A stretch of 64,000 nucleotides of DNA from a virus: the IMG/VR virus record IMGVR_UViG_3300022562_000333, positions 1 to 64,000 of that record, one strand, 5' to 3'. Below, in pieces: positions 31,954 to 60,013 of this stretch. The notes beneath the pieces are model-generated. The model did not search any database and was not told the origin of the DNA. It saw nothing but the letters and a program-made list of their open reading frames with translations. The translations under genes and the position numbers were made by a program. The first letter of the stretch is position 1; every line of letters starts with the position of its first letter.

Positions 31954-32589
31954 TTAGAAGCACCCGTCCCCACCCCTGTTCGACCACTGGGGCAATTTGA
32001 CCTCGCGCAAGATGTTGAATTTCTTGGACGCGATCGAAGAGAAGACCTTGCTGTACCGAGAGAACCGAGAATCCTCCCCAGCTCGTTTCTCCAGCGTGGT
32101 CACGGCGCCAAAGAAGCGGTGCCGAACTCTGCCCTGCGTAAGACCGAGCCGACTAGCGACTTCTGACTGACACGTGGTCTGCCACATGCCGACCAAGATG
32201 TTCACGTCGATGGGTTTGAACGGTACGTCGGGGAGGTCGCGGCGCATCTCCTCCTCGCTGACTTGGGGGATAGACAGGAGGAATCGAATTCGCTGGAGTC
32301 CTCGGTCGAGTCGGTAGCTGATAGCCGCCTGCGTCACCCCGAAGATTTCGGCGATGTCCGCCTGACGCTTCTTTTGGATGTAGTACAGGTCAATCAAGTC
32401 CGCTTCGCGTTCCGGAATCCGGTCGAGTAGCGGCTTGATCTCGTTCTCGAAGCTGAGCGTTGAGAGCAAGGGCTGGGCGTCGTCACCCTCTTCCTCCTCT
32501 TCCAACTCGTCGAATAAGGGCTCATCGGGGGCTGCGAATCGGTTGGCAAGTTCTGCCGGATCGACCGAAAAGACGTAGCCACCGCTCAT
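31954..32589 (-). CDS. Transcription factor with two tandem sigma70 region-4-like HTH domains (211 aa)
   Basis: LDRIPEREADLIDLYY..QADIAEIFGVTQAAISYRLDRGLQRIR and QSEVASRLGLTQGRVRHRF; no sigma2 region visible. Confidence 0.8.
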   Translation of the reverse strand: MSGGYVFSVDPAELANRFAAPDEPLFDELEEEEEGDDAQPLLSTLSFENEIKPLLDRIPEREADLIDLYYIQKKRQADIAEIFGVTQAAISYRLDRGLQRIRFLLSIPQVSEEEMRRDLPDVPFKPIDVNILVGMWQTTCQSEVASRLGLTQGRVRHRFFGAVTTLEKRAGEDSRFSRYSKVFSSIASKKFNILREVKLPQWSNRGGDGCF

Positions 32590-32606: not shown

Positions 32607-34628
32607 TCAGCTCTCGAAATTGAACTGCCCTTGTTGCTGCTTCACGAAACCAACTGAAGTTTGGAAGAACGGGTCCACGATCGGGTCAGCCTGGATGTTG
32701 AGACCCCCTATGGTCTCGGAGGCTGTCTTCGCATCGGGGGTTGGCGGGATCTCCTCGAACGGAAGGTCCGTGAGGAGCGTCATGAGTTTCAAATTGAGAC
32801 GAACTTGGTCCCCCGCTGAACGGATCTTGGCATACTGTTTCGGGGTGGTTCCCGACAGGTTCGATGCCAACATGTCTTCAACAGTGCCGTAGTTCTTCAA
32901 GAGCCCCGTGAGGATTTTGTCGGACACCATAGGGATGCCCGGTATCTCGTCCGAAGTGTCACCCAGCAACGCCCGAAGCTGGACCAAAGATTCAGGCGTG
33001 ACCCCATATTCTTCCACGACTTTATCCCGGTCGTAAAGGGTCTCTTGTCGATTTCCGACCTTGGGTGCTAGCACAATATCGGTAAGTGTCACCAGTTGTA
33101 GGAAGTCTTGGTCCGTGGAGACGATAACGTTGCGTTGTCCTTTGAGTTTTCCCCTGACCAGACACGCAATGATGTCGTCGGTCTCTTCGTCCTTGTTGAA
33201 CGCCTGAGTGACCCCCAGTGTCGGAAGGATGTTCCTGAGTCGGGTCATTTGGTTATCAGGTGTCGTTGCGCCGTTGGATGCCCGCTTTTGGCGACGCTTC
33301 AATTTGTAACCTGGGAACATTTCAATGCGGCGTTGGGGTGATCCATCCCAAACCACGTAGACCTTCGCGTTTGGGAACCGCTTCTTGTAGCTGGTAAGGC
33401 TTTTGAGGAACCCGAAGACCATCCCGGTTGGGTTGCCATCGGAGTCCGTGAGGGGGGTCTTCATCACACCCAGAGCGTTGGCGACTCGGTAGGCGAGGTT
33501 GTGCCCGTCGATGATGATGTTCTCGAACATGTCCGGTCTCCTCCACGTGAGCGCTTCGATGTTGTCCAGGTCCCTAGCGATGGAGTCAAGTCGCCGCACA
33601 ACGTCTTGAAGCCATTGGGTCTCGCGTTGCTTCGTCTTTACCCGCTCGTTGAACCCGTTTAGAATTTGCGTTTCAGACTGGCTCACCACGGGGTCCGTAG
33701 ACACGGAGTAGAAGAAGCCGGGGTTCTTTTGTATGATCGAGGTCATGTGCTTCACGCGCTCATGACGTGTCTTGATCCCAAGGAAGACCAGGCTCCGATC
33801 CTGGCGAAGCCACCCGTTTACGAGACTAAACTCCTCGTGTTTGCGGAGCAGGGGCGCTAGGTCAGCGTCAGGGGTTTGACGTACACGCTCAATGAGCCGC
33901 ATCTGCTCTAGGAGGGGGTCTCGGCGGTGCCACCACCGCATCGCCAGCTCAACGTTCGCGTACCTCTTGATGGCGTGTTCCAAGGGTTGAATGCTGAGCG
34001 GATCCCAGACCAAAAGGGGTCGCACGGCCCGAACCCAATCGCGGATCCTCTCGATTTTGGTGAGGAACGGAGAGAAGGTCGGGAGATCCGACTGATCCTT
34101 GGAAACGAACCGAAGGAAGCTCCTCGGGAGGGTGACGATGGCCTCTTTCGACCTGAGCTTGATGAATACTTGAACGCTGTCGTTCTCCGGGATCTCCTCG
34201 ATGATACGGCCGTTGATGCCCTTGTAGGCGCCGCTCATCACCTGGACTTCGTCCCCGACTTCGATCCCTTGCTCCGTCTCGACGTGGATCTGCTTTCGCA
34301 TCCGCTCGATATCGGAGTCTTGGACGCAGGCCATCTCCCGCACCGTCGTCTTCTTGTCGGAGCGGGCGATCGTCAAGACAGAGGAGATGTACTTCGTGCC
34401 TTCCAGACGGAGGAAGGCGTTGTCTGGTAGTGTTCTACGGATGAACACATAGTTGTCGATCAGCTTGTGGATGACTCGACTGTCCCCTTGAATCGAAATT
34501 GAAGCCGGGATGAAAATCTCGACCGCCTTGTCTCGAATCAGACGCACAAGGGCTGAGGAGAGGACTTCGGGGTCCTCATCCTCCCCTTGAGGGGACAACT
34601 CTAGGACCACCCACTCACGCTTCGCCAC
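32607..34628 (-). CDS. NusG-like (NGN+KOW) domain fused to a 5'-3' exonuclease/flap endonuclease (673 aa)
   Basis: N-terminus has WVVL..IFIP..LIDNYVFI..VGDEVQVMSGAYKGING. C-terminus has IIDGHNLAYR, VVWDG, YKLKR, ETDDIIA, STDQDFLQL and LLGDTSDEIPGI. Confidence 0.88.
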   Translation of the reverse strand: MAKREWVVLELSPQGEDEDPEVLSSALVRLIRDKAVEIFIPASISIQGDSRVIHKLIDNYVFIRRTLPDNAFLRLEGTKYISSVLTIARSDKKTTVREMACVQDSDIERMRKQIHVETEQGIEVGDEVQVMSGAYKGINGRIIEEIPENDSVQVFIKLRSKEAIVTLPRSFLRFVSKDQSDLPTFSPFLTKIERIRDWVRAVRPLLVWDPLSIQPLEHAIKRYANVELAMRWWHRRDPLLEQMRLIERVRQTPDADLAPLLRKHEEFSLVNGWLRQDRSLVFLGIKTRHERVKHMTSIIQKNPGFFYSVSTDPVVSQSETQILNGFNERVKTKQRETQWLQDVVRRLDSIARDLDNIEALTWRRPDMFENIIIDGHNLAYRVANALGVMKTPLTDSDGNPTGMVFGFLKSLTSYKKRFPNAKVYVVWDGSPQRRIEMFPGYKLKRRQKRASNGATTPDNQMTRLRNILPTLGVTQAFNKDEETDDIIACLVRGKLKGQRNVIVSTDQDFLQLVTLTDIVLAPKVGNRQETLYDRDKVVEEYGVTPESLVQLRALLGDTSDEIPGIPMVSDKILTGLLKNYGTVEDMLASNLSGTTPKQYAKIRSAGDQVRLNLKLMTLLTDLPFEEIPPTPDAKTASETIGGLNIQADPIVDPFFQTSVGFVKQQQGQFNFES

Positions 34629-36141
34629 GAACAGACGCCCCTTTTAGCAAAGACGAGCGAAGCTCTTTGAAGATCCGACGCCAAACGCTAGGTGTTACCG
34701 GGTTACGACCATCGCGAAGACGGTTGGCGTCAAATACAAGGGGTTGCTTGGTGTGCTTGTTTGCAGGCAGGTTGGCCGGCATAACCTGCGTATCGAACTC
34801 ACTCAAAGCACAGGGATCCTCCCCCATGTTCCCCAGCTTGGGCTGGGCCACATACTTAGGGGGCGGCGCAGACGGAACCGCCTGGACGGGCGGTAGGGCT
34901 ACCTGAACGGGGGCGGGAGGCGGGGCTGCCTGGACGGGGGGTGAGGCTGCCGGGGGGGCCGGAGACGGGGCTGCCTGGACGGGGGGTGGGGACTCAACCG
35001 GGGCTGCCTGGACGGGAGGTGGGGCTGCCTGGACGGGCGCTACCGCTACGGGCTGAAAGACCTGTTGAGGTTGCGTCTGCATCGCAGGGTCGAGAATCAC
35101 CCCAGCGGCGAGCTGCTTGGCGAGCGTCACGACATCACAGATCAGACCGATCTTCGTGACGTACCGTGAGTGCATGAAGTGCTTGGTGATCTTGATGAGC
35201 TGGTCCCCGTAGAGCTGGTACGCCTTTTGGCTCAGCTCCTTGTCAGCGAAGGTGAAGTCCGCCGTCATGCCGTTCGCCAAGCGGAACGAGGTCATGGCCG
35301 CTTCTGCGATACCCGAAGCAACCTCTTCAGGGGTGACCCGCTCACAAGCCTGGTCGATGAAGTCCAGGGCTTCTTTGGTGGCGCTCGGGATGCGAAGCAG
35401 GATCTCGTAGAAGAGGGAGATGGCGGAGAGGTTGAGGTGGTCGCGGACACTCTCCACCGTGACCGGCCCCATTTGAGCCACCATCTCCAGCTTGTTCAAG
35501 GTGTCGCGAACACCCCCGCCGCAGAAGTCGATGACCGTGAGGACCCCTTCGTCTTGGTGCTCCACGTTCTCTTGTGCGAGCACCATTTTCATCCGAGCGA
35601 GGATGTCGTCTCGGGTGACCTTACGGATCGCGTGCTCCTCGCACCGGGACCGGATCGCCCCACGAACCTTCTCCGGCTCCGTCGTACAAAACATCCCGAC
35701 GAGCTTTTTCTCTTCCAGGGGCTTGAGCAGGACGTCCTGTGCGTCCTTCGACATCCGGTGGCACTCGTCGATGACGTAAACCCTCTTCTTTGCCCCGAAG
35801 ACGGCAAAGGGGAGGTCATCCACGACCTTCCTGACGTACTCGATGGTCCCTCGACTAGCGGCGTCAAATTCGACGATAGCGCCCGCTGCATCGCTCAACG
35901 AAGCCTTGCAGTTGTCGCACTCGTTGCAAGGTTCAGGGTCACTTGGGTCGAGCTGTTGGCAGATCACAGCCCTGGCGAGGATTCTCGCAAGGGTGGTCTT
36001 ACCCTGTCCTGGTCCACCCCAAAACAGGTAGTTCGTGTCCAAGGCGGTGCCGTTCTTGAGCCTCGATTTGAGGATCTGAACGGCACCTTCTTGCCCGAGG
36101 ACGTCAGCGAACTTGAGCGGCCTGTACTTCGTATCCCACAC
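34615..36141 (-). CDS. dnaX: DNA polymerase III clamp loader gamma/tau subunit
   Basis: KYRPLKFADVLGQ, GGPGQGKTTLAR, C..PCNECDNC, IDECHRM, LLKPLEE and IRSRC, with a Pro-rich linker. Confidence 0.93.
   Translation of the reverse strand: MWDTKYRPLKFADVLGQEGAVQILKSRLKNGTALDTNYLFWGGPGQGKTTLARILARAVICQQLDPSDPEPCNECDNCKASLSDAAGAIVEFDAASRGTIEYVRKVVDDLPFAVFGAKKRVYVIDECHRMSKDAQDVLLKPLEEKKLVGMFCTTEPEKVRGAIRSRCEEHAIRKVTRDDILARMKMVLAQENVEHQDEGVLTVIDFCGGGVRDTLNKLEMVAQMGPVTVESVRDHLNLSAISLFYEILLRIPSATKEALDFIDQACERVTPEEVASGIAEAAMTSFRLANGMTADFTFADKELSQKAYQLYGDQLIKITKHFMHSRYVTKIGLICDVVTLAKQLAAGVILDPAMQTQPQQVFQPVAVAPVQAAPPPVQAAPVESPPPVQAAPSPAPPAASPPVQAAPPPAPVQVALPPVQAVPSAPPPKYVAQPKLGNMGEDPCALSEFDTQVMPANLPANKHTKQPLVFDANRLRDGRNPVTPSVWRRIFKELRSSLLKGASVRGEA
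34876..35040 (-). repeat. Coding repeats (PVQAA/PVQVA) in the DnaX linker
   Basis: Recurrent gcctggacggg units. Confidence 0.8.
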
Positions 36142-36648: not shown

Positions 36649-37347
36649 TCACTCCATTTGCGCTAGAAGATACGGCTTGAATCGGTCGTCGCCCCACGCT
36701 TCCCAGAGGTCACCGGGGTCTTTGACTGGTTTGCCTCGCAGGGTGAGCCCTACGGGGTACTCGGGAATACGAACCTCAAATAAGTCCCCGCATTCTTTGC
36801 GGAATGTGGCGCACGCTTTACGGCCGATCGCATCATTATCATAAAAGAGGTAGGTGCGCTTTACAAGACGCTTGAAGGTGCGGAGGAGTACATCACTGAC
36901 CTTGGCGGTCAAGGTGGCAATCGTGAAAGGTACAACGCGCTGCGTTGGAAAGAAGTCGAAGACCCCTTCCACTGGGAGAGCTGACTCGGTCTCCCAAATT
37001 GAAGGCATGGCTTGACCTAGCCCGAAAAAGACTGGCTCTGCGTGCGTGAGGAGGTAGTCCGAGTAGATCCCACCTTCCCGCTCCACACCCCTGAATTGAA
37101 ACCCCTGAATCTCACCAAGAGGGTTGGTGAGCGGGAAGACGTAGCAGTCTTGGAGCTTGCGACCCTTCCAGCACCACTCCAAAAACTCCTCGGGGTACTC
37201 GGCCTCCGGGAGCTTCCTGTCTAGGTAACCTACCCGAAGGAGATCGATCTGCTCGTCTGAGGCGCCACGGGACCAGAGGGCTTCACGGACGCGTTCGTCC
37301 ACCCCCTTTTGCGCGTACTCTACGAGCGTCTCAACCCAGGCTGTCAT
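36649..37347 (-). CDS. DnaG-like primase core (TOPRIM), no zinc-binding domain (232 aa)
   Basis: VFPL..G.I.GFQFR, VEGVFD, LFYDNDAIG and KDPGD. Confidence 0.85.
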   Translation of the reverse strand: MTAWVETLVEYAQKGVDERVREALWSRGASDEQIDLLRVGYLDRKLPEAEYPEEFLEWCWKGRKLQDCYVFPLTNPLGEIQGFQFRGVEREGGIYSDYLLTHAEPVFFGLGQAMPSIWETESALPVEGVFDFFPTQRVVPFTIATLTAKVSDVLLRTFKRLVKRTYLFYDNDAIGRKACATFRKECGDLFEVRIPEYPVGLTLRGKPVKDPGDLWEAWGDDRFKPYLLAQME

Positions 37348-37900: not shown

Positions 37901-38517
37901 CTCCGGAGCCTCTTAGGCTCCGCTCCGAGAAGGCGGAGGAGCCAAGCCTTCCACCACGGCACAACGGTTTCCACGGGAGCTTCGGGGATCGTAGCCTCAG
38001 CGGCTTCCACGGGAACAGGGGGAGCCTCGGCTTCCCCTACCAGCTCGTCGATCTTCTCCTGAGTCTCAACGATCTGAGGTTGTTCCTTCGCTTCAGTTTC
38101 TTCCAAGAGCCACATGAGGGCGAAGACCTCGGGTAGATGCTCCCGAGCCCACGCCTCGTCCCGGAGCTGCTCGCGAAACTCTTTGAGCAGGTCCGCCTTG
38201 AGCTTCGCAGGCTTGAAGTCCGGACACCTTTTCGCGTCAATCGGGTCCTCGCAAATGGTACCACCCCAGGTCTCGGGGTCGTCCGAGCCGAGCATGCAAA
38301 GACCGATGGTCTGGATGACGGGGAGCCCTCGTCCGTTCGCGATACGGTTGTAGCCTTCGTTGGGCTCCCCATCCACTTGCTTGCGTTGGTCGAGCGGATG
38401 ACGGTGGTTGTGAACGCAGCGATGCGGAAGCCTCTCCGAAGCCTCCGCAATCCGCTTGTTCACCTCTTCCGCTAGGAGCTGGTTGAGGCGAACCCGAACT
38501 TCGGGCTCGCCTCTCAC
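37897..38517 (-). CDS. Hypothetical Cys/His-containing protein (206 aa)
   Basis: Overlapping start/stop coupling; RCVHNH..C..C..C, with amphipathic C-terminus PWWKAWLLRLLG. Confidence 0.65.
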   Translation of the reverse strand: MRGEPEVRVRLNQLLAEEVNKRIAEASERLPHRCVHNHRHPLDQRKQVDGEPNEGYNRIANGRGLPVIQTIGLCMLGSDDPETWGGTICEDPIDAKRCPDFKPAKLKADLLKEFREQLRDEAWAREHLPEVFALMWLLEETEAKEQPQIVETQEKIDELVGEAEAPPVPVEAAEATIPEAPVETVVPWWKAWLLRLLGAEPKRLRS

Positions 38518-39206
38518 GATACGCTCCGCAGCTTTTTCACCACGAACTCCTGCCTTACACCTTGGGTCTTCGAGTCCCCGTGGTACGAGAGAGTCGCGTG
38601 GTCAATGAAAGCGGGCTTGTGGGTTACCATGAGCAGAGACAGATCACTCGTGGCCGCTAGTTTTTGGAGAAACTGTCCCGTCGCCTCGATGTAGTCATCG
38701 GAGACAGCCGCGAGAGTCTCATCAAGCAACAACGTGCGCTGCCGTTTCAGCCGGAGGAGGGTGAGGATCCGAAGAATGAGGCTGGCGATGCTTGACGGAC
38801 CACCCCCGAACGAGTCGAGAGGGGAGCCTTTGATTCCACCGTTGTCCGGGTCGCCTTGGCAGATGTAGAACTCGACCGCGATCTTGTTGTACTTCTGCGA
38901 CACTTCGGCCCGGAAGCTGAGGTCTTGGTCGAAGAAGATCGTACGAAGGCCCTCGGACACGATGGTCTCGATGGTGCGCACCTGACCCATGACCATCTGG
39001 TCCATGAGGACCCGGTATAGTTCCGCGACTTTGGTGAGGACTTCTTGGCGACGGGCTAGCTCCGCGATCTCCACCTCTTTAGAGACCAACTCCCGAGAGA
39101 GTTGATCTCGCATCGTCTTGAGGCGAATCGCGGAGGTCTGTAGATGCCTGACCCGTTGCGCCCAGCCGTCTACTCCTTCGACGGCATGAAGCGGGTCACT
39201 CGGCAT
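38514..39206 (-). CDS. SbcC/Rad50-like ABC ATPase, C-terminal half
   Basis: Short coiled coil, signature-like SFGGG, Walker B LLLDE and H-loop MVTH; no Walker A. Confidence 0.85.
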   Translation of the reverse strand: MPSDPLHAVEGVDGWAQRVRHLQTSAIRLKTMRDQLSRELVSKEVEIAELARRQEVLTKVAELYRVLMDQMVMGQVRTIETIVSEGLRTIFFDQDLSFRAEVSQKYNKIAVEFYICQGDPDNGGIKGSPLDSFGGGPSSIASLILRILTLLRLKRQRTLLLDETLAAVSDDYIEATGQFLQKLAATSDLSLLMVTHKPAFIDHATLSYHGDSKTQGVRQEFVVKKLRSVS

Positions 39207-40411
39207 GAGAACGTACCTTCTGGTTCGACGGTCACGTTGCCGCTTTCGTCCAGGTGAAAGTCATCGATCGTGCGGAACATACCCACTTCCTTGCGGTCCG
39301 CCGACGCTGGGACGATCAGGATGTGGAACTCGACCTCGTTGTTCTTGACCTTCTCCACGAGGTCGATCATGTGGTTCAGGTTGATGTTGAAGCTCCAGTC
39401 ACGGGCCTCGATCATCTCCGTTTCACCCTCTTTCTTGGGGCGAACCCTGACCGGGATGCTGTCCGTCTTGGACGTCCCTTCCGAAACGCCGAACTGAAGC
39501 TGACGCCTCTCGTGGTTGAAGATGATCTTGATCTTGTCGCGGTCCTTGTCCAACTCACTACGCGTGTACTTGAGTGAGTTGAGGAATTGGACCTTGTCGA
39601 TGAGAAAGATGTTCTTGTCGTTCTTGAGAGCGTAGTATTTGAACTGGGGATGGCTCTTGGCGTGCTTGGGCCAACCGAGCACCTGACCCGAAACGTTCTC
39701 CAAGAACGTGAAGTGAGAGCCGATTCGGAACGTCACCTTGCCAGCGCTCTTGCTGAGAAACTGCTGGAGGGGGCCGAGGTGTTGTCCGTGGACCTCGACA
39801 CCTTTGCCGGCGAAGGCGTCGCACCAGAAGTAGTAGGCGCGAACGGAGTCGGCTGCGAAGAGGTGACCGTCACCCTTGGCGTGTTCAGGCTTCGAGCCGT
39901 CGAACACCTGAACCGCCTTGTACTGCTCTTCCGCCTTGGTGTCCGAAGCCTCTGCCATAAACGGCTTCGCCATGTCGATGGCCTGCCTGAGAATGGCCGT
40001 GGGGTAGTCGTACGTCGTCGTGGTGGCCTTCAGATCGTCATCACACGTCGAGAGGAGCCGTGGACTGAATGAGCTTCGCTCCGTACGAGCACCGTTGCCC
40101 GCTTCGTAGCGAACGATGAACCGCTCATCCTCCTTAGCTTCCGCCTCGAAGGTGAGGTTTTGCCCATCGAGGTAGTTGAGAGCTTCGATGTACTCGGCCG
40201 GGTAGACGAACTGGCCGTCCCCGTCCGACTCCTCCAGCTTGAGGTTGGCTCGGGCGACACACTGATCGTTCCGAGAGTAGACCTGGCAATCGAGCCCGGT
40301 CACCACGAAGAGGTACCCGGCTCCCCCTTGAGGGGTCACGGGTCGCGGCTTGACGATCTTGACGAGGTCGAGCGCTGCGATCAAATTCGACGCGTTGAGT
40401 TTGATTTTCAT
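39170..40411 (-). CDS. dnaN: Sliding clamp, DNA Pol III beta-like (413 aa)
   Basis: N-terminus MKIKLNASNLIAALDLV, C-terminus FMP, size consistent with three domains, and dnaX/holA/holB nearby. Confidence 0.72.
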   Translation of the reverse strand: MKIKLNASNLIAALDLVKIVKPRPVTPQGGAGYLFVVTGLDCQVYSRNDQCVARANLKLEESDGDGQFVYPAEYIEALNYLDGQNLTFEAEAKEDERFIVRYEAGNGARTERSSFSPRLLSTCDDDLKATTTTYDYPTAILRQAIDMAKPFMAEASDTKAEEQYKAVQVFDGSKPEHAKGDGHLFAADSVRAYYFWCDAFAGKGVEVHGQHLGPLQQFLSKSAGKVTFRIGSHFTFLENVSGQVLGWPKHAKSHPQFKYYALKNDKNIFLIDKVQFLNSLKYTRSELDKDRDKIKIIFNHERRQLQFGVSEGTSKTDSIPVRVRPKKEGETEMIEARDWSFNINLNHMIDLVEKVKNNEVEFHILIVPASADRKEVGMFRTIDDFHLDESGNVTVEPEGTFSCRVTRFMPSKE

Positions 40412-41662: not shown

Positions 41663-42640
41663 TCACCCTACGGAGTCGACAAGTTCCAGGTAACGGAGAG
41701 CTTCCTCTCGCACGTTGTCGGCGAAATTCAGGCCCCGGATGTTGGCTTCGATGGAGGAGTTGGGGTCGATCACCCCATCTGAGAGAAGCTGGAGAACGAA
41801 CTGATCGATGTCCCGACGTTCCTTCTCTTGGGCGGCCTTCTTCTCCAGGTCGAAGACCTCCTCGGCGGGAGCAACGGAGAGCGGGATGACCGTCACCTTG
41901 ACATCACCCCCATCGATCTCGACGAGAGCTACCTGCGGGGTTCGTTGAAGGTTCTCCCTTACGAGGGCTCCACGTGAGACAGCCCCGACGTTGATGAACT
42001 GGCGGCCGTGGATGACCTCTACTCCTTGGTCCTTGTGCCAGTGCCCAAAGCACCACGCATCGGGGCCGTTGCGGCTTATGAGGGCCTCGTACGGGAACAC
42101 GGGCTCGTTGAAGAAGTCCTCTGCTTGAGCTGGGGGCTTCTTACCGGCGAGAGCGTGGACCATCGCGATGAGGTGGGTATCGCCAGGCTGCTTCTGGATC
42201 TTGAGCAGGTCGTCCAGGGTTCGAGTCGGGCTGTAAGGGACTCCTACGACCCGTACTTGAAGGTTTCCGTCGTTGAAGACCTGCTCCCGGAGTTGGTGGA
42301 ACACGCCGCTGGCATACAAGACGCCCAGAGGTTGCTTCCCCAGGGTCTCCAGGTTGTTGAACGAGATGTCGTGGTTGCCTTCGATTTCGTATACGGGGCA
42401 TGGGTAACCCCGGTGAACGCGAGCTGACTTCTCCACTAAGGCATGCGAGTTTTTCGACGACGCCTTGACGTGGAAGTAGTCCCCCGCATCGAGAACGGCC
42501 GTGGCTTCTCTAGCCTTAGCGATGGCGCCAATCTGTTCGAGGTTGCTCCAAATCTCGGCTGGGTAGTCACCCTTCCAAGAAATGGGGCTCCGATCCGAGA
42601 CATGAACGTCCGTCCTCGTGAGGAAGGCGAGTCTAGGCAT
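41663..42640 (-). CDS. sbcD: SbcD/Mre11 metallophosphoesterase nuclease
   Basis: TDVH, AGDYFH, GNHD, MVH, FGHWH and NVGA motifs. Confidence 0.9.
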   Translation of the reverse strand: MPRLAFLTRTDVHVSDRSPISWKGDYPAEIWSNLEQIGAIAKAREATAVLDAGDYFHVKASSKNSHALVEKSARVHRGYPCPVYEIEGNHDISFNNLETLGKQPLGVLYASGVFHQLREQVFNDGNLQVRVVGVPYSPTRTLDDLLKIQKQPGDTHLIAMVHALAGKKPPAQAEDFFNEPVFPYEALISRNGPDAWCFGHWHKDQGVEVIHGRQFINVGAVSRGALVRENLQRTPQVALVEIDGGDVKVTVIPLSVAPAEEVFDLEKKAAQEKERRDIDQFVLQLLSDGVIDPNSSIEANIRGLNFADNVREEALRYLELVDSVG

Positions 42641-43859
42641 GGAGGTGACGCCCCGATTGAACCGGCTGCGTACAGGTTGGGCACACGCCGAGAGCGTCCA
42701 CCTCGCCTTGAACGAGCTTCTCCTCCGCCTCGGTAGCGTCCAGCTCGGCCTGAACCTGCTGAATCGACTTCGTGATGGAGGTATGTTTGGAAGCGAACCG
42801 CGTCAGCTCCCGGAGCTTGTCCCGGTTCGTTTCGAGAGGGTCGAGCGCCGGCAAGATGATCTTCTCCGCTGCCTCAAGAGCGGTGAACCTCGCCTTGTAG
42901 GAGCGCATCCGTTGGATCCACTTGTCCAGTTGGCGGATCTTGTCGATGACCTCTTGGAGTCCCTCGATGGCGGGAACCAAACCGAGGAACTTGTCGACCC
43001 ATGAAAGGTTCTTGAAGTCCTCCACCCGTCTGTTTAATTCGTTGGCGAACTTTGTGAGCAGCGTCGCCTTCTTGGACTGTGTGAGGACGGTCTCCAAGTC
43101 GGGTACTGCTACCGAGTTGATCTCCCAGAGCGCTTTGAGTCGAGCAACCAGAGCCCCGGTCGTGGTGATGTATCGGTCCAACACGGTGACGCGTTGAGCC
43201 TCTGATTCCACCCTAACCAGAGCACGGACGGCTGACTCCGTCTTGTCGAGAGCCGCGTCTAGGCCATCGTACGCGGCAAGTCGAACACGAAGCTCCTCCG
43301 CATCCTTCTCGCGGATCTTCTTGGTAGATACGACTTCCCGTCGATCCTTCTCCACCATCTTCGTGGCAGCGGTCACCCGGTCAAGACGAGCCACATCGGA
43401 GATGGCCTCCGCTACGGCTGGCCCAGACTGGTTGAGCAGGAAGATGGGGAAGAACTGGTCCGCAACCTGGATGCTGCCGACGTCATCCCCAACTTTGACT
43501 GGAGCGAAGCCGCTCGTGATGAGGAAGTCGGGGATGCCCTGCCCAGGCTTGTCGTAGACCTGCCCGTTGAACGTGTATTTGTTGACGGAGTCACCCTTCT
43601 CCCAGAGAAGGTCAAACCCTTCTGCCTTGAGGCGAACCGTCGTCTGACACTTGCACGTCTTGGCCCCACGAACGGACCGAGCGCAGTAGGTGGTATGGCG
43701 TACGAACGAGGTCCCGAGGGAGTTGGTGAGGGCGCACTTGATGGCCCTCACCACGGCTGACTTCCCGATGTTGGAGCGACCAACAAGGGCTGTAAAGCCG
43801 TCAATACGAATCGAGACTTGCTCGATTGATTGAAACCCCCGTATTTCGACCTCAACCAT
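42633..43859 (-). CDS. sbcC: SbcC/Rad50-like ABC ATPase, N-terminal half ending in a zinc hook
   Basis: IRGFQS, Walker A GRSNIGKS, Q-loop ADQF, long coiled coil and terminal CPTC. Confidence 0.88.
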   Translation of the reverse strand: MVEVEIRGFQSIEQVSIRIDGFTALVGRSNIGKSAVVRAIKCALTNSLGTSFVRHTTYCARSVRGAKTCKCQTTVRLKAEGFDLLWEKGDSVNKYTFNGQVYDKPGQGIPDFLITSGFAPVKVGDDVGSIQVADQFFPIFLLNQSGPAVAEAISDVARLDRVTAATKMVEKDRREVVSTKKIREKDAEELRVRLAAYDGLDAALDKTESAVRALVRVESEAQRVTVLDRYITTTGALVARLKALWEINSVAVPDLETVLTQSKKATLLTKFANELNRRVEDFKNLSWVDKFLGLVPAIEGLQEVIDKIRQLDKWIQRMRSYKARFTALEAAEKIILPALDPLETNRDKLRELTRFASKHTSITKSIQQVQAELDATEAEEKLVQGEVDALGVCPTCTQPVQSGRHLHA

Positions 43860-50223: not shown

Positions 50224-52113
50224 CTACCCGACCAGTTGGAGGAACTCGTCCTCTGTGATGACCTTGGTGCCGTACTTCCGGGCGGTAGCCGCCTTCGTCG
50301 TAGAGCTGTCGGCGGCCACGAGGTAGCTGAGCTTCTTGGTCACGGAGGACTTCACCACACCTCCGTTGGAGGTGACCAAGGATTCTAGCTCGGGGCGCTT
50401 GCGAGCCATTGTGCCCGTGAAACAGAACGTCATGCCGGTGAGTCTGCCCTTCACTCGGTCAATGATCGATACGCCAGCAAGCTGTAGTTCGTCCACCACG
50501 TGCCCGTGGTTCTTGAGCCAAGTGAAGAGGGACTCCGCCTTGACTGGGCCGAGCCCGGTCACCTTCATGAGCTGTTCGAGAGATGCGTCACGGATGGCGT
50601 CGAGGGTATCGATCCCAGCCTCCATCACCATCTTGATCGTGCTCACCGCAACACCTGGGATCGAAAGAGCCCCGAGAACGGTCTCCAAGGGGAGGTCTTT
50701 CTTCTCGTTGAGGTTCGCCAGTACCTTTGCCGCGACCTTCGGTCCCATGCGGTCAAGTCCAGCCACCTGTTCTTCCGTCAGAAGGTAAAGGTCCGGAACA
50801 GATTTTACGAGCCCTGTAGAGACGAGCTTCTCCAAGAGGGTGTCACCCCACTCCAGAACGTTGAGGGTGGCGATCCACTGAGAAAGGCGGCCGGTAACCT
50901 GCGCTGGGCACCCCGTCCAGTTGGGGCACACATGGTACTCCCCGTCTTGGACAACGTTTGCACCACAAACGTCGCAGGTGGCGGGGGGTTGGTTGACCGA
51001 CCCCGAACCTCGGACAAGGGACACTACACGCGGGATAACGTCGTTCGCTCGGGCCACGAGAACGCGGGAACCTACATCGAGGCCGAGGTCTTTGATGTAC
51101 TTCCAGTTGTAGAGGCTGGCGTTCGTTACCTGAGCCCCCATCAAATTCACGGAGTCGAAGACGGCGACGGGGGTGATTCGGCCGGTACCTCCCGTCTGGC
51201 GGAGAATCTGGCGGACGATGGTTTCCCGCGTGACAGGGGCAAACTTGAACGCCACGGCCCCCTTGGGTCGCAAGTCCTTCTCACCTAGCGCGAGCTGTTT
51301 GGCGAGGTTGTTGACCCGGACGACCAACCCGTCGATGTCGTAATCCAGCCGGTCCCGCTTACCTTGCTGGTAGTCCACCCAGATGTCGTGAGGGGTCTTG
51401 ATCCCCATCCACATGCCGGATAGCGACCACCAGGGGGTCACGAAACCAAGCTCTTGAAGGTACCTGAACTGGTCCTCCTCCGTGGTGAAGTTGGCACCCT
51501 CAGCCACGTGGTAGAACATGACCGTGAGGTGGTCACACCCACGCCCATCATACCTCTTGGAAATGCCGCTGGCTGCGTTACGGGTGTTGGCGTAGTCGTC
51601 CTTGAACCACGCCTCGTGGTCGCTCTTGAGCAGTACGATTTCACCGCGAAGTACGAGGTTGAGCTTCTTGGGGAGGCGAGGGAAAATACCCTTCATTTTG
51701 AGAACGTTGGCCGTGATTTCCTCGCCTGTATGCCCATCCCCTCGTGTTGCAGCCTGAACGAGCTTGCCGTTGAAGTATCGGACTTGAACGCTGATCCCGT
51801 CGAGCTTCTCCGTAACGAGCAGAGCCTCTCCGGGAGCGTAGGAATTGACCCAGTCCGTCATCTCCTCCAAGGCGTTGACCTTGTTGAGCGATCCCATCGG
51901 GTGGTCGTGTTTGACCTTCTTCCATTCAGAAACGGGAGCGGCGCCGACTTGAACGACAACGCGGTTGACCGCGTCGAGCATGGACAACTCGTCAACCCAA
52001 GCGTCGTAAACCTCATCGGTGACGTTGGGTTGCTTGTTGTAGTAGTCGTTTCGAGCCTTACCGATGAGCCCTTCAAGCTCGGCGATTCGGGCTCTGCGCT
52101 CCTCGTCGGTCAT
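50224..52113 (-). CDS. ligA: NAD-dependent DNA ligase
   Basis: YY..D..YD, HPMGSL, EKLDG, TRGDG, DGLVV, AFKF, zinc finger, HhH and BRCT. Confidence 0.96.
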   Translation of the reverse strand: MTDEERRARIAELEGLIGKARNDYYNKQPNVTDEVYDAWVDELSMLDAVNRVVVQVGAAPVSEWKKVKHDHPMGSLNKVNALEEMTDWVNSYAPGEALLVTEKLDGISVQVRYFNGKLVQAATRGDGHTGEEITANVLKMKGIFPRLPKKLNLVLRGEIVLLKSDHEAWFKDDYANTRNAASGISKRYDGRGCDHLTVMFYHVAEGANFTTEEDQFRYLQELGFVTPWWSLSGMWMGIKTPHDIWVDYQQGKRDRLDYDIDGLVVRVNNLAKQLALGEKDLRPKGAVAFKFAPVTRETIVRQILRQTGGTGRITPVAVFDSVNLMGAQVTNASLYNWKYIKDLGLDVGSRVLVARANDVIPRVVSLVRGSGSVNQPPATCDVCGANVVQDGEYHVCPNWTGCPAQVTGRLSQWIATLNVLEWGDTLLEKLVSTGLVKSVPDLYLLTEEQVAGLDRMGPKVAAKVLANLNEKKDLPLETVLGALSIPGVAVSTIKMVMEAGIDTLDAIRDASLEQLMKVTGLGPVKAESLFTWLKNHGHVVDELQLAGVSIIDRVKGRLTGMTFCFTGTMARKRPELESLVTSNGGVVKSSVTKKLSYLVAADSSTTKAATARKYGTKVITEDEFLQLVG

Positions 52114-57967: not shown

Positions 57968-60013
<2,046 letters not shown>

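What the first reader, a model, noticed from the sequence alone, without database searches (positions are those of the whole stretch)
32607..34628. NusG/RfaH-like elongation factor fused to a 5'-3' flap exonuclease
Seen: one uninterrupted frame with NGN+KOW (about aa 1-175), a roughly 190-aa helical linker, and a PolI-N/T4 RNase H-like nuclease with its acidic motifs largely intact (aa 367-673). Known: NusG binds the RNAP clamp helices, and FEN-type nucleases remove primers and cut RNA:DNA hybrids. Inference: an RNAP-tethered 5' nuclease could resolve R-loops or transcription-replication collisions, act as a torpedo-like terminator, or bring RNAP to Okazaki junctions. I know of no characterised protein with this architecture.
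Basis: partly seen in the sequence, partly recalled or inferred. Interest (0 to 1): 0.85.

Follow-up and report, generated by a model that had tools for sequence, protein, structure and literature searches.

The report
Huge-phage NusG fused to flap nuclease
An uncultured huge phage from marine sediment joins a copy of NusG, the factor that rides on RNA polymerase, to its only DNA flap nuclease in one protein, hinting at an unstudied physical link between phage transcription and DNA replication.

Summary
ORF 32607-34628 (-) is one open 673-aa frame. It has a NusG-like NGN (aa 5-118) and KOW (120-176), a poorly conserved helical spacer (177-366), and a complete PolI-type 5' nuclease (367-~650) with every catalytic carboxylate conserved.

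It is not an assembly artefact: 52 of 55 IMG/VR loci keep one frame, 2 are split into overlapping ORFs, and 1 is cut by a contig end.

The window is a fragment (CheckV 17%) of a huge phage. Complete relatives are 407-512 kb. In 5 of 5 (4 complete, 1 94%) the fusion is the only FEN and the only NusG-like gene.

No phage RNAP beta or beta', DnaE or RNase H1 was found. PolA, a beta clamp, a clamp loader, a primase and sigma factors are present.

The gene always lies between the clamp loader and a strongly conserved sigma-region-4 gene. Two more distant huge phages keep that order with a standalone NusG-like gene, and one of them (a whole 485-kb record) has no FEN. The nuclease was therefore probably captured later.

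RNAP binding is inferred, not shown. An internal start may also yield free nuclease.

I found no paper describing this. The scan has noted the same fusion before, in at least 16 other genomes.

The parts
32607..34628 (-). Whole NusG-FEN fusion ORF, 673 aa, GTG start, stop at 32607-32609
   Evidence: ORF. (domains); 117 of the 120 listed homologues cover at least 92% of it.
34275..34616 (-). NGN domain (aa 5-118), NusG/RfaH/Spt5 fold
   Evidence: PF02357, 23.2 bits against cut-off 22.2. 2lq8 at 6e-8. 8pen_P RfaH NGN at Z 9.3, rmsd 3.0, 97 of 101 residues. pLDDT mostly above 90. W6, P41, L56, Y60 and F62 are invariant or nearly so in 117 sequences.
34101..34271 (-). KOW domain (aa 120-176), a beta-barrel; the most conserved part of the protein
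   Evidence: PF00467, 25.1 bits against cut-off 22.3. KOW and Spt5 KOW structures at Z 8-9, rmsd 1.2-2. Majority-residue fraction 0.74, against 0.59 for NGN and 0.63 for FEN.
33531..34100 (-). Helical spacer (aa 177-366): long helices, variable in length and poorly conserved
   Evidence: Helices 187-362 at pLDDT about 50-85. Only generic coiled-coil matches, Z about 7. Majority fraction 0.27 and length 124-190 aa across 117 sequences.
33528..33544 (-). Candidate internal start: GGAGGAG (33538-33544), a 7-nt spacer, then in-frame ATG (33528-33530, Met367), seven codons before the first catalytic Asp
   Evidence: Duplex energy with a generic anti-SD is -9.3 kcal/mol, reached by about 1.3% of 155 internal in-frame ATGs of the window. 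A start codon sits at -7 in 24 of the 28 relatives where the motif was located. Translation from it is not shown.
33003..33518 (-). FEN catalytic (PIN-like) domain, aa 371-542, with helical arch
   Evidence: PF02739, 3.8e-28. Profile against M. smegmatis Pol I 6vde 3.7e-46 and Taq 1.4e-41. Foldseek against FenA 6c36 2e-17. D374, E481, E482, D484, D506, D508, Y441, K442 and R445 are invariant; D428 and D485 are at least 90% conserved.
32754..33002 (-). H3TH DNA-binding domain of the FEN, aa 543-625
   Evidence: PF01367, 2.9e-16. G556 is nearly invariant; D557, S559 and D560 of the GDxSD motif are invariant.
32610..32753 (-). C-terminal tail, aa 626-673. It has a partly conserved FF and a GF.K motif. 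The window and its closest relatives add a short Q-rich extension.
Evidence: Majority fraction 0.34. Residues 665-673 have pLDDT below 50.
34615..36141 (-). Context: DnaX-like clamp-loader ATPase, whose stop overlaps the fusion's start by 14 nt
   Evidence: PF13177, 6.2e-24. phrog_5846, 9e-58. Adjacent in all loci with flank, and also in L057 and L058.
31954..32589 (-). Context: 211-aa protein with sigma-70 region 4 and a second HTH, 17 nt downstream of the fusion
   Evidence: PF04545, 1.9e-14. 50-86% identical to the window's protein in 55 loci. Mean column identity 63%. Also follows the standalone NusG-like gene in L057 and L058.
36649..37347 (-). Context: Toprim primase-like protein
   Evidence: phrog_47 DNA primase, 3e-15. 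Toprim_2 at 20.7 bits, below its cut-off of 22.1.
39170..40411 (-). Context: beta sliding clamp (DnaN-like), invisible to Pfam and PHROGs
   Evidence: No Pfam or PHROG hit. ESM Atlas features score 0.95 to viral DNA_pol3_beta clusters; structure TM 0.79/0.86 to a beta sliding clamp cluster.

Best explanation
The gene encodes a bifunctional huge-phage protein.

Shown:
- The N-terminal 176 residues are a divergent member of the NusG/Spt5 family (NGN plus a beta-barrel KOW).
- The C-terminal ~300 residues are a catalytically complete Pol I-type 5' flap endo/exonuclease.
- A 124-190-aa helical spacer under little sequence constraint joins the two.
- The fusion is conserved across a large clade of 400-510 kb phages.
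- It is the only FEN and the only NusG-like gene in complete genomes of that clade.
- It lies in a fixed block: primase, metallopeptidase, clamp loader, NusG-FEN, sigma-4 protein.

Inferred:
- These phages show no RNA polymerase of their own but do encode sigma factors. The NGN therefore most likely docks on the beta' clamp helices of the host RNAP elongation complex, as every studied NGN does.
- The protein would then act first as a phage-specific elongation or antitermination factor for long co-oriented operons. That would be the ancestral job, still done by standalone relatives.
- The captured nuclease would be carried on a flexible arm of several nanometres beside transcribing RNAP. There it can remove RNA:DNA hybrids and 5' flaps where transcription meets replication: R-loops, transcripts used as primers after co-directional collisions, and unprocessed Okazaki ends met by RNAP.
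- Bulk Okazaki primer removal is probably done by the same domain, possibly as a free ~34-kDa isoform started at Met367.
For: Architecture and fold.

Active-site completeness: D374, E481, E482, D484, D506, D508, D557, D560, Y441, K442 and R445 are invariant in 117 sequences, and D428 and D485 are at least 90% conserved.

The fusion is real and under selection:
- 117 of the 120 listed homologues cover at least 92% of the query at 37-71% identity.
- 52 of 55 IMG/VR loci have one frame.
- NGN, KOW and FEN are each well conserved while the linker is not.

Sole FEN and sole NusG-like gene: PF02739 finds exactly one hit per genome in 5 of 5 (4 complete, 1 94%), always in the fusion gene; in the split genome G005 it lies in the separate FEN ORF of that gene. 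PF02357 hits only that gene in 4 of 5, including the N-half ORF of split G005, and finds nothing in the fifth.

PolA is present in 5 of 5 but carries no 5' nuclease domain. RNase H1 is absent in 0 of 11.

No phage RNAP was seen: beta 0 of 5 and beta' 0 of 11. Sigma70_r2 is found in 7 of 11, with 3 over the cut-off.

Synteny holds in all loci with enough flank.

The NusG-like part is the older one. Two more distant huge phages, LR745208.1 (485 kb) and an IMG/VR 113-kb contig, keep primase, metallopeptidase, clamp loader, standalone NusG-like and sigma-4 in the same order. LR745208.1 has no FEN anywhere. In a tree of the NusG module, all 41 sampled fused proteins fall in one clade (SH-aLRT 98), separate from a 70-row clade with no fusion.

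The hydrophobic NGN motif Y60-V-F62 is invariant and aligns with Y-V-F of T. maritima NusG. The RfaH residue F56 in this patch is required for RNAP binding (PMC7593976, passages read); that F62 corresponds to F56 rests on my recall of the RfaH sequence.

Internal start.

Every ORF given a family or a syntenic homologue in the window lies on the - strand, so co-directional encounters would dominate.
Against: - No direct or predicted evidence of RNAP binding was obtained.
- The two N-terminal Pfam scores barely pass their cut-offs, and the host is unknown.
- The most conserved part is the KOW, not the NGN. The critical partner may therefore be something other than RNAP.
- One subclade has split the gene into two overlapping ORFs, so covalent linkage is not indispensable.
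- A conserved internal start would let the nuclease act free of the NusG part, which weakens the argument that tethering matters.
- The sister group does without any FEN, so the nuclease is not needed for the NusG-like protein's core function.
- Very divergent phage RNAPs of the phiKZ type can escape Pfam models, so 'host RNAP' is not proven.
- The only sigma-NusG fusion found (P0179) is a singleton: none of the 45 other hits covers both halves. It carries little weight.
Confidence: 0.45

Rival explanations
1. Two independent jobs in one polypeptide. The NusG-like part is a phage elongation or antitermination factor, and the FEN is the replisome's primer-removal nuclease. The fusion would be a tolerated accident of gene capture next to the clamp-loader gene, with no functional coupling. 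Most working nuclease would be made from the internal start or act regardless of its tether.
For: The linker is unconstrained. A derived fission occurs in one subclade. A start codon lies seven codons before the catalytic Asp in 24 of 28 relatives, with SD-like sequence stronger than background. Sister phages have the NusG-like gene without a FEN. The FEN is the sole primer-removal candidate.
Against: The fusion has persisted down to about 37% identity in well over 100 protein clusters. Even where it is split, the two ORFs stay adjacent and overlapping. The closest standalone FENs in the near-length search are 12 clusters of 294-310 aa; those checked are halves of split genes or possible contig fragments, and the next hits drop to 40% identity and below.
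Confidence: 0.25
2. Replication-coupled transcription switch, analogous in logic to T4 gp45/gp33/gp55. The FEN and tail would bind the beta clamp and nicks or flaps left by replication. The NGN would occupy the beta' clamp helices, and the neighbouring sigma-4 protein the beta flap. Replicated DNA would then recruit or activate RNAP for late genes.
For: The block clamp loader / NusG-like / sigma-4 is invariant, even in phages without the FEN. The sigma-4 protein lacks region 2, the part that normally binds the clamp helices, and is very conserved. The phage encodes its own beta clamp. FENs commonly bind clamps; this is established knowledge of FEN1-PCNA, recalled.
Against: No clamp-binding motif was demonstrated. 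The tail is poorly conserved. NusG-family proteins are elongation factors, not initiation factors. No homology to gp33 or gp55 was tested. The sister clade has the block without the FEN, so the FEN cannot be the ancestral coupling device.
Confidence: 0.12
3. The NGN-KOW module has been repurposed as a docking module for a replisome component (clamp, SSB, primase or PolA) or for the ribosome, and does not bind RNAP. The protein would simply be a FEN with an unusual targeting domain.
For: It sits in a replication gene cluster. The KOW is more conserved than the NGN. KOW and Tudor-like barrels bind many partners (varied VIA hits).
Against: Standalone relatives always lie next to a sigma-4 gene. 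The hallmark hydrophobic NGN residues are invariant. All studied NGN domains bind RNAP (PMC7819879, passage read).
Confidence: 0.1
4. Torpedo-like terminator or co-transcriptional RNA 5'-3' exonuclease. The tethered nuclease would degrade nascent RNA from its 5' end, like Rat1/Xrn2 working with Spt5.
For: The logic is analogous to the Spt5-Xrn2/Rat1 and Spt5-FttA complexes (search listings and abstracts; Rat1-Pol II structures appear among the KOW hits).
Against: The nuclease half is closest to the Pol I 5' nuclease domain (6vde 3.7e-46, Taq 1.4e-41) and has an intact H3TH duplex-DNA-binding motif. Such enzymes act on DNA junctions and RNA:DNA hybrids, not on free RNA (established knowledge, recalled).
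Confidence: 0.05
5. Assembly, frameshift or gene-calling artefact that joins two neighbouring genes.
For: None was found. Two relatives do carry the halves in different frames.
Against: 52 of 55 independent metagenomic loci from many samples have a single open frame. There are 163 fused proteins among the 260 collected.
Confidence: 0.01

Closest known systems
Specialised NusG paralogues (RfaH, LoaP, UpxY, ActX/TaA) and housekeeping NusG/Spt5
   Same: It has an NGN plus a single KOW, with the same fold. It is an extra, element-encoded copy expected to act on a subset of long operons. The hydrophobic NGN motif is kept.
   Different: It is encoded by a huge phage. It carries a ~150-190-aa helical spacer and a complete 5' nuclease after the KOW. 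No paralogue described in the NusG review carries a nuclease: the text has 0 occurrences of 'fused', 'fusion' or 'nuclease' (PMC7819879). The recruitment signal is unknown, and the KOW is modelled as a beta-barrel, not an RfaH-type helical hairpin.
Pol I 5' nuclease domain and standalone bacterial or phage FENs (M. smegmatis FenA, E. coli ExoIX/Xni, T5 D15, T4 RNase H)
   Same: It has the PIN-like catalytic domain, helical arch and H3TH, with all metal-binding carboxylates and the YKxxR arch motif. It is probably the primer-removal enzyme of a PolA-based replisome.
   Different: It is not attached to a polymerase and does not stand alone. It is fused behind a transcription factor. The phage PolA has lost, or never had, this domain.
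Spt5-associated nucleases in termination (yeast/human Rat1/Xrn2 with Spt5; archaeal FttA with Spt4/5)
   Same: A NusG/Spt5-family factor positions a nuclease on the elongation complex (abstracts and listing).
   Different: Those are non-covalent complexes of RNases with other specificities. Here the link is covalent and the nuclease is a DNA-structure-specific FEN. This is an analogy of logic only; no homology is implied.
T4 late-transcription machinery (sliding clamp gp45 with gp33 and gp55)
   Same: Clamp and clamp-loader genes lie beside RNAP-binding factors, and a partial sigma-like protein is present. Replication may be coupled to transcription.
   Different: No sequence relationship was tested. 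The RNAP-binding parts here are a NusG-like protein and a sigma region-4 protein. Clamp binding is not shown. The comparison rests on recalled knowledge of T4.

Membership tests
NusG/Spt5 family | NGN domain (alpha/beta fold) | tested here: met
   PF02357, 23.2 bits against cut-off 22.2. phmmer to NusG 2lq8 at 6e-8 over residues 4-168. Foldseek top hits are NusG and RfaH. VIA Z 10.7 (2xhc) and Z 9.3, rmsd 3.0, 97 of 101 residues (RfaH NGN 8pen_P).
NusG/Spt5 family | KOW domain after the NGN | tested here: met
   PF00467, 25.1 bits against cut-off 22.3. KOW structures at Z 8-9 with rmsd 1.2-2.5. Five-strand barrel at aa 127-176 in both models.
NusG/Spt5 family | Binding of the NGN to the RNAP beta' clamp helices and beta gate loop | not testable with these tools
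The only indirect evidence is the invariant Y60-V-F62 motif aligned to Y-V-F of T. maritima NusG and the importance of RfaH F56 (PMC7593976). The residue correspondence to RfaH is recalled.
RfaH-type specialised paralogues | Autoinhibited all-alpha KOW and sequence-specific (ops) recruitment | tested here: inconclusive
   AF2 models show a beta-barrel KOW, but a model cannot exclude fold switching. No recruitment element was searched for.
Pol I-type 5' nuclease / FEN (PF02739 + PF01367) | PIN-like domain with two clusters of metal-binding carboxylates | tested here: met
   PF02739, 3.8e-28. D374, E481, E482, D484, D506 and D508 are invariant, and D428 and D485 at least 90% conserved, in 117 sequences. 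They align to the Pol I motifs DG..LA.R, EADD and GD.D in 6vde.
Pol I-type 5' nuclease / FEN (PF02739 + PF01367) | Helical arch with the conserved Tyr-Lys-x-x-Arg | tested here: met
   Y441, K442 and R445 are invariant. Helices 432-471 lie between the core strands in the model. That this motif includes the catalytic lysine of T5 FEN (K83) is recalled; a K83A entry, 1xo1, appears.
Pol I-type 5' nuclease / FEN (PF02739 + PF01367) | H3TH DNA-binding motif (GDxSDN.PG) | tested here: met
   PF01367, 2.9e-16. D557, S559 and D560 are invariant; G556 and G564 are nearly so.
Pol I-type 5' nuclease / FEN (PF02739 + PF01367) | Flap endonuclease / 5'-3' exonuclease activity | not testable with these tools
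   This needs an enzyme assay.
T4-type clamp-coupled late transcription | Clamp-binding tail on the RNAP-bound factors | not tested
   The tail is only partly conserved. No complex prediction was possible.

The most novel reading that the evidence does not exclude
The conserved block of clamp loader, NusG-FEN and sigma-4 protein, together with the phage beta clamp, is a replication-coupled transcription device built from parts never seen in that role.

In this reading the flap nuclease recognises nicks, flaps and clamps left behind the fork. Through its NusG arm and the region-2-less sigma-4 partner it hands host RNAP onto freshly replicated DNA. Conversely, it uses RNAP to patrol the 0.5-Mb genome for unprocessed RNA:DNA junctions.

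This would be a second, independently evolved solution to the problem T4 solves with gp45, gp33 and gp55.
Probability: 0.12. Interest if true: 0.9.

Novelty: new variant of a known kind. Interest (0 to 1): 0.7.

Why it matters
NusG/Spt5 is the only transcription factor conserved in all life, and its KOW end is known as an adaptor for ribosomes, Rho and RNA-processing enzymes. A natural, widely conserved covalent fusion to a DNA flap nuclease would be the first case of a replication or repair nuclease delivered by that adaptor.

It offers a simple, testable handle on how very large phage genomes reconcile heavy co-directional transcription with replication: R-loops, mRNA-primed restart, and unprocessed Okazaki ends.

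It also shows that a whole group of 400-510 kb phages carries its own NusG paralogue next to a truncated sigma-like protein. This points to an undescribed layer of host-RNAP takeover.

Practically, the protein could serve as a tool for targeting nuclease activity to elongation complexes.

Tried and rejected
The look-up of sequencing runs found one full DNA holder (a marine sediment metagenome, possibly the source) and no RNA holder. Read laying on two runs laid nothing, because only contigs are kept and only 44-59% of them were read. There is therefore no read-level or expression evidence either way.

T7-type single-subunit RNAP (PF00940): 0 of 11, but the control genomes did not ring either, so this is uninformative.

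DnaG core (PF08275): 0 of 11 over the cut-off. This briefly suggested RNAP-made primers. I rejected that because the 232-aa neighbour matches phage primases (phrog_47, 3e-15).

DnaE (PF07733): 0 of 5.

Linker fold: only generic coiled-coil matches at Z about 7, below the level that is meaningful for helical proteins. No fold was assigned.

Sigma-NusG fusion P0179 as 'Rosetta stone' evidence. A follow-up search found it to be a single cluster on one 18-kb contig, and none of the 45 other hits covers both halves. The search for related loci found no relative. I downgraded it to a curiosity.

The C-terminal extension of the NusG-like P0186 group gave only weak winged-helix leads (score 0.86, TM below 0.5). 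It is not related to the sigma-4 neighbour: the sigma-4 HMM found nothing among the 260 proteins.

Isolated phages (INPHARED). The full-length query matched only through its FEN half: 0 of 206 records cover at least 80%. The N-half matched only LR745208.1.

An alignment of 37 standalone NusG-like proteins was too diverse for the search for related loci. The single proteins P0180 (no relative) and P0182 (one locus) were used instead.

Papers. Searches for NusG with 'huge phages', 'jumbo phage', 'flap endonuclease'+phage, 'bacteriophage-encoded'/paralog, and exonuclease/'domain fusion'/KOW found nothing on this architecture. Term searches inside PMC7819879, PMC7162821, PMC7824862, PMC13282480 and PMC12484599 found no NusG-nuclease fusion. 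The supplementary tables of PMC7162821, the huge-phage paper I recall as the source of LR745208.1 (no call checked this), may list domain annotations that I could not see.

Script slips. The regex was wrong and was corrected. The script crashed, and one search printed stale lines for L058; one search repeated it correctly. Only, and the L057 part, are used.
Full report
OBSERVATION

The ORF 32607..34628 (- strand) is a single open frame of 673 aa. Its GTG start overlaps the stop of the upstream gene by 14 nt, and the next gene begins 17 nt after its stop, so the three are almost certainly co-transcribed.

- NusG/NGN, aa 6-110: 23.2 bits, cut-off 22.2.
- KOW, aa 124-155: 25.1 bits, cut-off 22.3.
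- 5_3_exonuc_N, aa 371-542: 3.8e-28.
- 5_3_exonuc H3TH, aa 543-625: 2.9e-16.

PHROGs calls the two halves 'transcription antiterminator' (phrog_6386, 5e-8) and 'exonuclease' (phrog_107, 9e-23).

The N-terminal Pfam scores are marginal, so I tested that half separately:
- phmmer of aa 1-179 against PDB sequences aligns residues 4-168 with residues 6-169 of T. maritima NusG (2lq8, 6e-8). Further NusG chains follow.
- An AF2 model of aa 1-366, built on 38 sequences (pLDDT 80.7), has NusG and RfaH chains as its best Foldseek matches: 9a56_B 4e-9, 6gov_G 1.4e-8, 8phk_P 9.5e-7.
- In an exhaustive VIA-align search it gives NusG 2xhc at Z 10.7, Spt5 4zn3 at Z 10.2, and RNAP-bound RfaH NGN 8pen_P at Z 9.3, rmsd 3.0 over 97 of 101 residues.

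The full-length model (117 sequences, pLDDT 85.8, pTM 0.58) shows the NGN at 5-118, a KOW barrel at 127-176, long helices at 187-362 with lower confidence, and a very confident FEN at 370-654. The FEN's best structural matches are M. smegmatis FenA (2e-17), a plastid exonuclease, ExoIX, T5 FEN and Taq.

ACTIVE SITE

In an alignment of 117 full-length homologues, D374, E481, E482, D484, D506, D508, D557 and D560 are invariant. So are the arch residues Y441, K442 and R445. D428 and D485 are at least 90% conserved. In the profile-to-PDB alignment these fall on the corresponding Pol I motifs of 6vde.

The nuclease half scores higher against Pol I N-terminal domains (6vde 3.7e-46, Taq 1.4e-41) than against standalone FENs: FenA 1.2e-28, ExoIX 2e-22, T5 2e-12, T4 RNase H 7e-6.

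THE FUSION IS REAL AND CONSERVED

A search of the 5.8-billion-protein collection gave 218 hits. Of the 120 listed, 117 cover at least 92% of the query at 37-71% identity and are 591-682 aa long. JGI's pipeline names many of them '5'-3' exonuclease/transcription antitermination factor NusG'.

IMG/VR holds 55 loci:
- 52 have one open frame with both halves.
- L027 is cut by its contig end.
- L043 and L045 carry the two halves as overlapping ORFs in different frames, the second with its own ATG.

A near-length search with the FEN half alone found 12 clusters of 294-310 aa at 48-68% identity. Of the five I read, three are FEN halves of the split subclade and two come from 1-2 kb contigs and may be fragments. 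The next hits then fall to 40% identity and below. This FEN lineage therefore appears essentially only in, or next to, the NusG-like gene.

WHAT CARRIES IT

The window is the first 64 kb of an 83-kb IMG/VR virus record that CheckV rates 17% complete. The only public run that holds it is a marine sediment metagenome.

Relatives include genomes of 407-512 kb, several with direct terminal repeats and 100% estimated completeness. Family searches in these relatives gave the following:

| Family | Result |
|---|---|
| PF02739 (FEN) | One hit per genome in 5 of 5 (4 complete, 1 94%), always the fusion gene (in split G005, its separate FEN ORF) |
| PF02357 (NusG) | That gene alone in 4 of 5 (in split G005, its N-half ORF), nothing in the fifth |
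| PolA | Present in 5 of 5, in 930-1422-aa frames, without a 5' nuclease domain |
| DnaE | 0 of 5 |
| RNase H1 | 0 of 11 |
| RNAP beta | 0 of 5 |
| RNAP beta' | 0 of 11 |
| Sigma70 region 2 | 7 of 11, three over the cut-off |

Very divergent phage RNAPs could escape these models, so 'no phage RNAP' is probable rather than proven.

The window's neighbourhood is a replication and recombination cluster. Every ORF to which I could assign a family or a syntenic homologue is on the - strand. The assigned genes are:
- Toprim primase-like protein (phrog_47, 3e-15);
- a phage metallopeptidase and a DnaX-like clamp loader;
- a beta sliding clamp seen only by the ESM Atlas (features 0.95; TM 0.79/0.86);
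- a PD-(D/E)XK nuclease, SbcD- and SbcC-like proteins and RecA;
- RuvC-like resolvase;
- RecD2-like helicase, NAD-dependent ligase, RNR and GroEL.

SYNTENY AND HISTORY

The order primase-like, metallopeptidase, clamp loader, NusG-FEN, sigma-4 protein, Ig-like protein, p521, p710 is kept in all loci with enough flank. The 211-aa downstream protein has sigma-70 region 4 plus a second HTH and no region 2. It is more conserved than the fusion itself: 50-86% identity to the window's protein, and mean column identity 63%.

An exhaustive HMMER search with aa 1-366 found 283 relatives. Besides fusions there are N-half-only proteins, more than 50 standalone 165-225-aa NusG-like proteins, and a few with other extensions.

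I built a maximum-likelihood tree of the NusG module with 132 rows: 41 of the 163 fused proteins, taking every fourth plus the window's, and 91 of the 97 others. The six left out matched under 140 model positions.
- All 41 fused rows fall in one 62-row clade (SH-aLRT 98).
- A 70-row clade contains no fusion.
- The verified split forms (P0121, P0122, P0124, P0125; SH-aLRT 98) nest inside fused lineages, so the split is a derived fission.
- The root is a midpoint root, so the direction of change rests mainly on the next point.

Two loci from the non-fused clade could be inspected: GenBank LR745208.1 (uncultured phage, 485 kb) and an IMG/VR 113-kb contig. Both show primase-like, metallopeptidase, clamp loader, standalone NusG-like (at most 207 and 224 aa) and an orthologous sigma-4 protein (E 3e-50 and 9e-49 to my sigma-4 HMM), followed further on by p521 and p710. 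LR745208.1 has PolA but no PF02739 anywhere in its 485 kb.

The simplest reading is this. A clamp loader / NusG-like / sigma-4 block is old in this group of huge phages. A Pol I-type 5' nuclease was later captured at the 3' end of the NusG-like gene in one lineage and has been kept there since.

CONSTRAINT ALONG THE PROTEIN

| Region | Majority-residue fraction |
|---|---|
| NGN | 0.59 |
| KOW | 0.74 |
| Linker | 0.27 |
| FEN | 0.63 |
| Tail | 0.34 |

Linker length ranges from 124 to 190 aa. The KOW is thus the most constrained part, which argues for an important and conserved partner of that domain. The spacer behaves as a length-tolerant helical arm.

The NGN keeps the family's hallmark residues (W6, P41, L56, Y60, F62). 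Y60-V-F62 aligns with Y-V-F of T. maritima NusG. The mBio paper on RfaH evolution states that the beta' clamp helices bind a hydrophobic NGN patch and that RfaH F56 is required for RNAP binding (PMC7593976, passages read). That F62 is the equivalent of F56 is my recollection of the RfaH sequence, not a tool result.

INTERNAL START

An earlier first-stage note pointed to GGAGGAG seven nucleotides before an in-frame ATG (Met367) at the start of the nuclease. I tested this.
- In the window the predicted pairing with a generic anti-SD is -9.3 kcal/mol. Only about 1.3% of 155 internal in-frame ATGs reach this, and it is stronger than the median real start, -6.1.
- I examined 37 non-redundant relatives. 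The catalytic motif could be located by pattern in 28. Of these, 24 have a start codon (21 ATG, 3 GTG) exactly seven codons before the catalytic Asp, and 4 do not. The other 9 could not be scored.
- Upstream SD-likeness has median -5.4 against -2.5 for internal ATGs. It is in the top 5% in 7 of 24 and never above the background median.

The loci are related, so these are not independent counts. The conserved Met may also be structural. A free ~34-kDa nuclease isoform is plausible but unproven.

MECHANISM

Shown:
- the domains;
- an intact active site;
- conservation of the fusion;
- sole-copy status;
- the fixed neighbourhood;
- the probable later capture of the nuclease.

Inferred:
- The NGN binds host RNAP, since all studied NGNs bind the clamp helices and gate loop (PMC7819879, passage read).
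- The protein is first of all a phage elongation or antitermination factor.
- The tethered FEN acts on RNA:DNA hybrids and flaps where RNAP and the replisome share a template.

Because all assigned genes in the window are co-oriented, co-directional encounters should dominate. The known use of a transcript as a primer after such a collision (recalled, not checked here) would create exactly the RNA-primed 5' end that a FEN removes.

I give this reading 0.45. The main rival, at 0.25, is that the two halves work independently and the fusion is merely tolerated. Lesser rivals are a T4-like replication-coupled transcription switch (0.12), an NGN-KOW repurposed for a replisome partner (0.10), and a torpedo-like RNA exonuclease (0.05). 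An artefact is excluded for practical purposes.

COMPARISON WITH THE KNOWN

- The N-half meets the structural criteria of the NusG/Spt5 family. RNAP binding could not be tested.
- The C-half meets every sequence and structural criterion of Pol I-type FENs.
- The combination is not mentioned in the NusG review (PMC7819879: 0 occurrences of fused, fusion or nuclease).
- 'NusG' occurs nowhere in the main text of the huge-phage paper (PMC7162821), the jumbo-phage comparative overview (PMC7824862, which also has no 'KOW'), the 2026 jumbo-phage review (PMC13282480) or the phage G paper (PMC12484599). These were term searches within the texts, not full readings.
- Five library searches found nothing. 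Supplements could not be opened.
- Automatic annotation (JGI) already labels both domains, so the architecture is visible in databases but, as far as I can tell, unstudied.

EARLIER NOTES OF THIS SCAN

The same fusion has been noted before. A word search found 22 findings in at least 16 genomes, several with follow-up reports that reached the same general reading. My results were obtained independently on this window and agree with them.

- The KOW is the most constrained domain.
- There is a tree-based single fused clade with a nested fission.
- The published record LR745208.1 is a FEN-less comparator with the same gene order.
- The phage beta clamp was identified.
- RNase H1 is absent.
- The lone sigma-NusG fusion is a singleton.

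VERDICT

This is a real, conserved and biochemically plausible new architecture: a phage NusG paralogue carrying the phage's only flap nuclease. I class it as a new variant of known kinds. Interest is 0.7. The decisive experiments are simple: RNAP binding, nuclease assays and isoform detection.

Noticed in passing
window 31954-32589 (-): This 211-aa protein has sigma-70 region 4, a second HTH and a strongly conserved C-terminal FNILREV.LPQW..RG.D motif, but no sigma region 2. It is more conserved than the fusion: 56 columns are invariant in 31 sequences. It follows the NusG-like gene even in FEN-less phages.
   Followed up: partly
window 39170-40411 (-): This 413-aa protein has no Pfam, PHROG or PDB sequence match. 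The ESM Atlas places it with beta sliding clamps (features 0.95, TM 0.79/0.86). It is a very divergent phage DnaN.
   Followed up: yes
L024, L025, L037 (clamp-loader frames of 697-912 aa) and L057:6161-8047: The clamp-loader gene next to the fusion is about 200-440 aa longer in some relatives. In LR745208.1 it shows Intein_splicing and HINT matches, so an intein probably lies in the clamp loader.
   Followed up: partly
protein P0179 (JGI, 18-kb contig): A single 541-aa protein joins sigma-70 regions 2 and 4, a Pro/Lys-rich repeat and a NusG-like module of the fused clade. No second example was found.
   Followed up: yes
proteins P0186, P0189, P0196, P0250 (383-406 aa): These NusG-like proteins of the non-fused clade carry a different ~220-aa C-terminal extension, with only weak winged-helix leads. 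This suggests the NusG-like module carries various cargo domains in huge phages.
   Followed up: partly
relatives G001 (1422-aa frame) and LR745208.1 (1763-aa frame): The PolA genes are unusually long, and their Pfam match is broken into pieces. Inteins or large insertions are likely. None has a 5' nuclease domain.
   Followed up: no
window 38514-39206 and 42633-43859 (-): An SMC/AAA_15 N-terminal ATPase head (42633-43859) and a separate ATPase-like ORF (38514-39206, phrog_15167) flank the SbcD-like gene, the PD-(D/E)XK nuclease and the clamp.
   Followed up: no
window 57968-59632, 52510-54450, 50224-52113 (-): The phage encodes a GroEL-type chaperonin, a B12-type ribonucleotide reductase and an NAD-dependent DNA ligase with BRCT.
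   Followed up: no
LR745208.1, whole record: This 485-kb phage has PolA and a clamp loader but no PF02739 FEN. How it removes primers is open; RNase H was not searched in it.
   Followed up: partly
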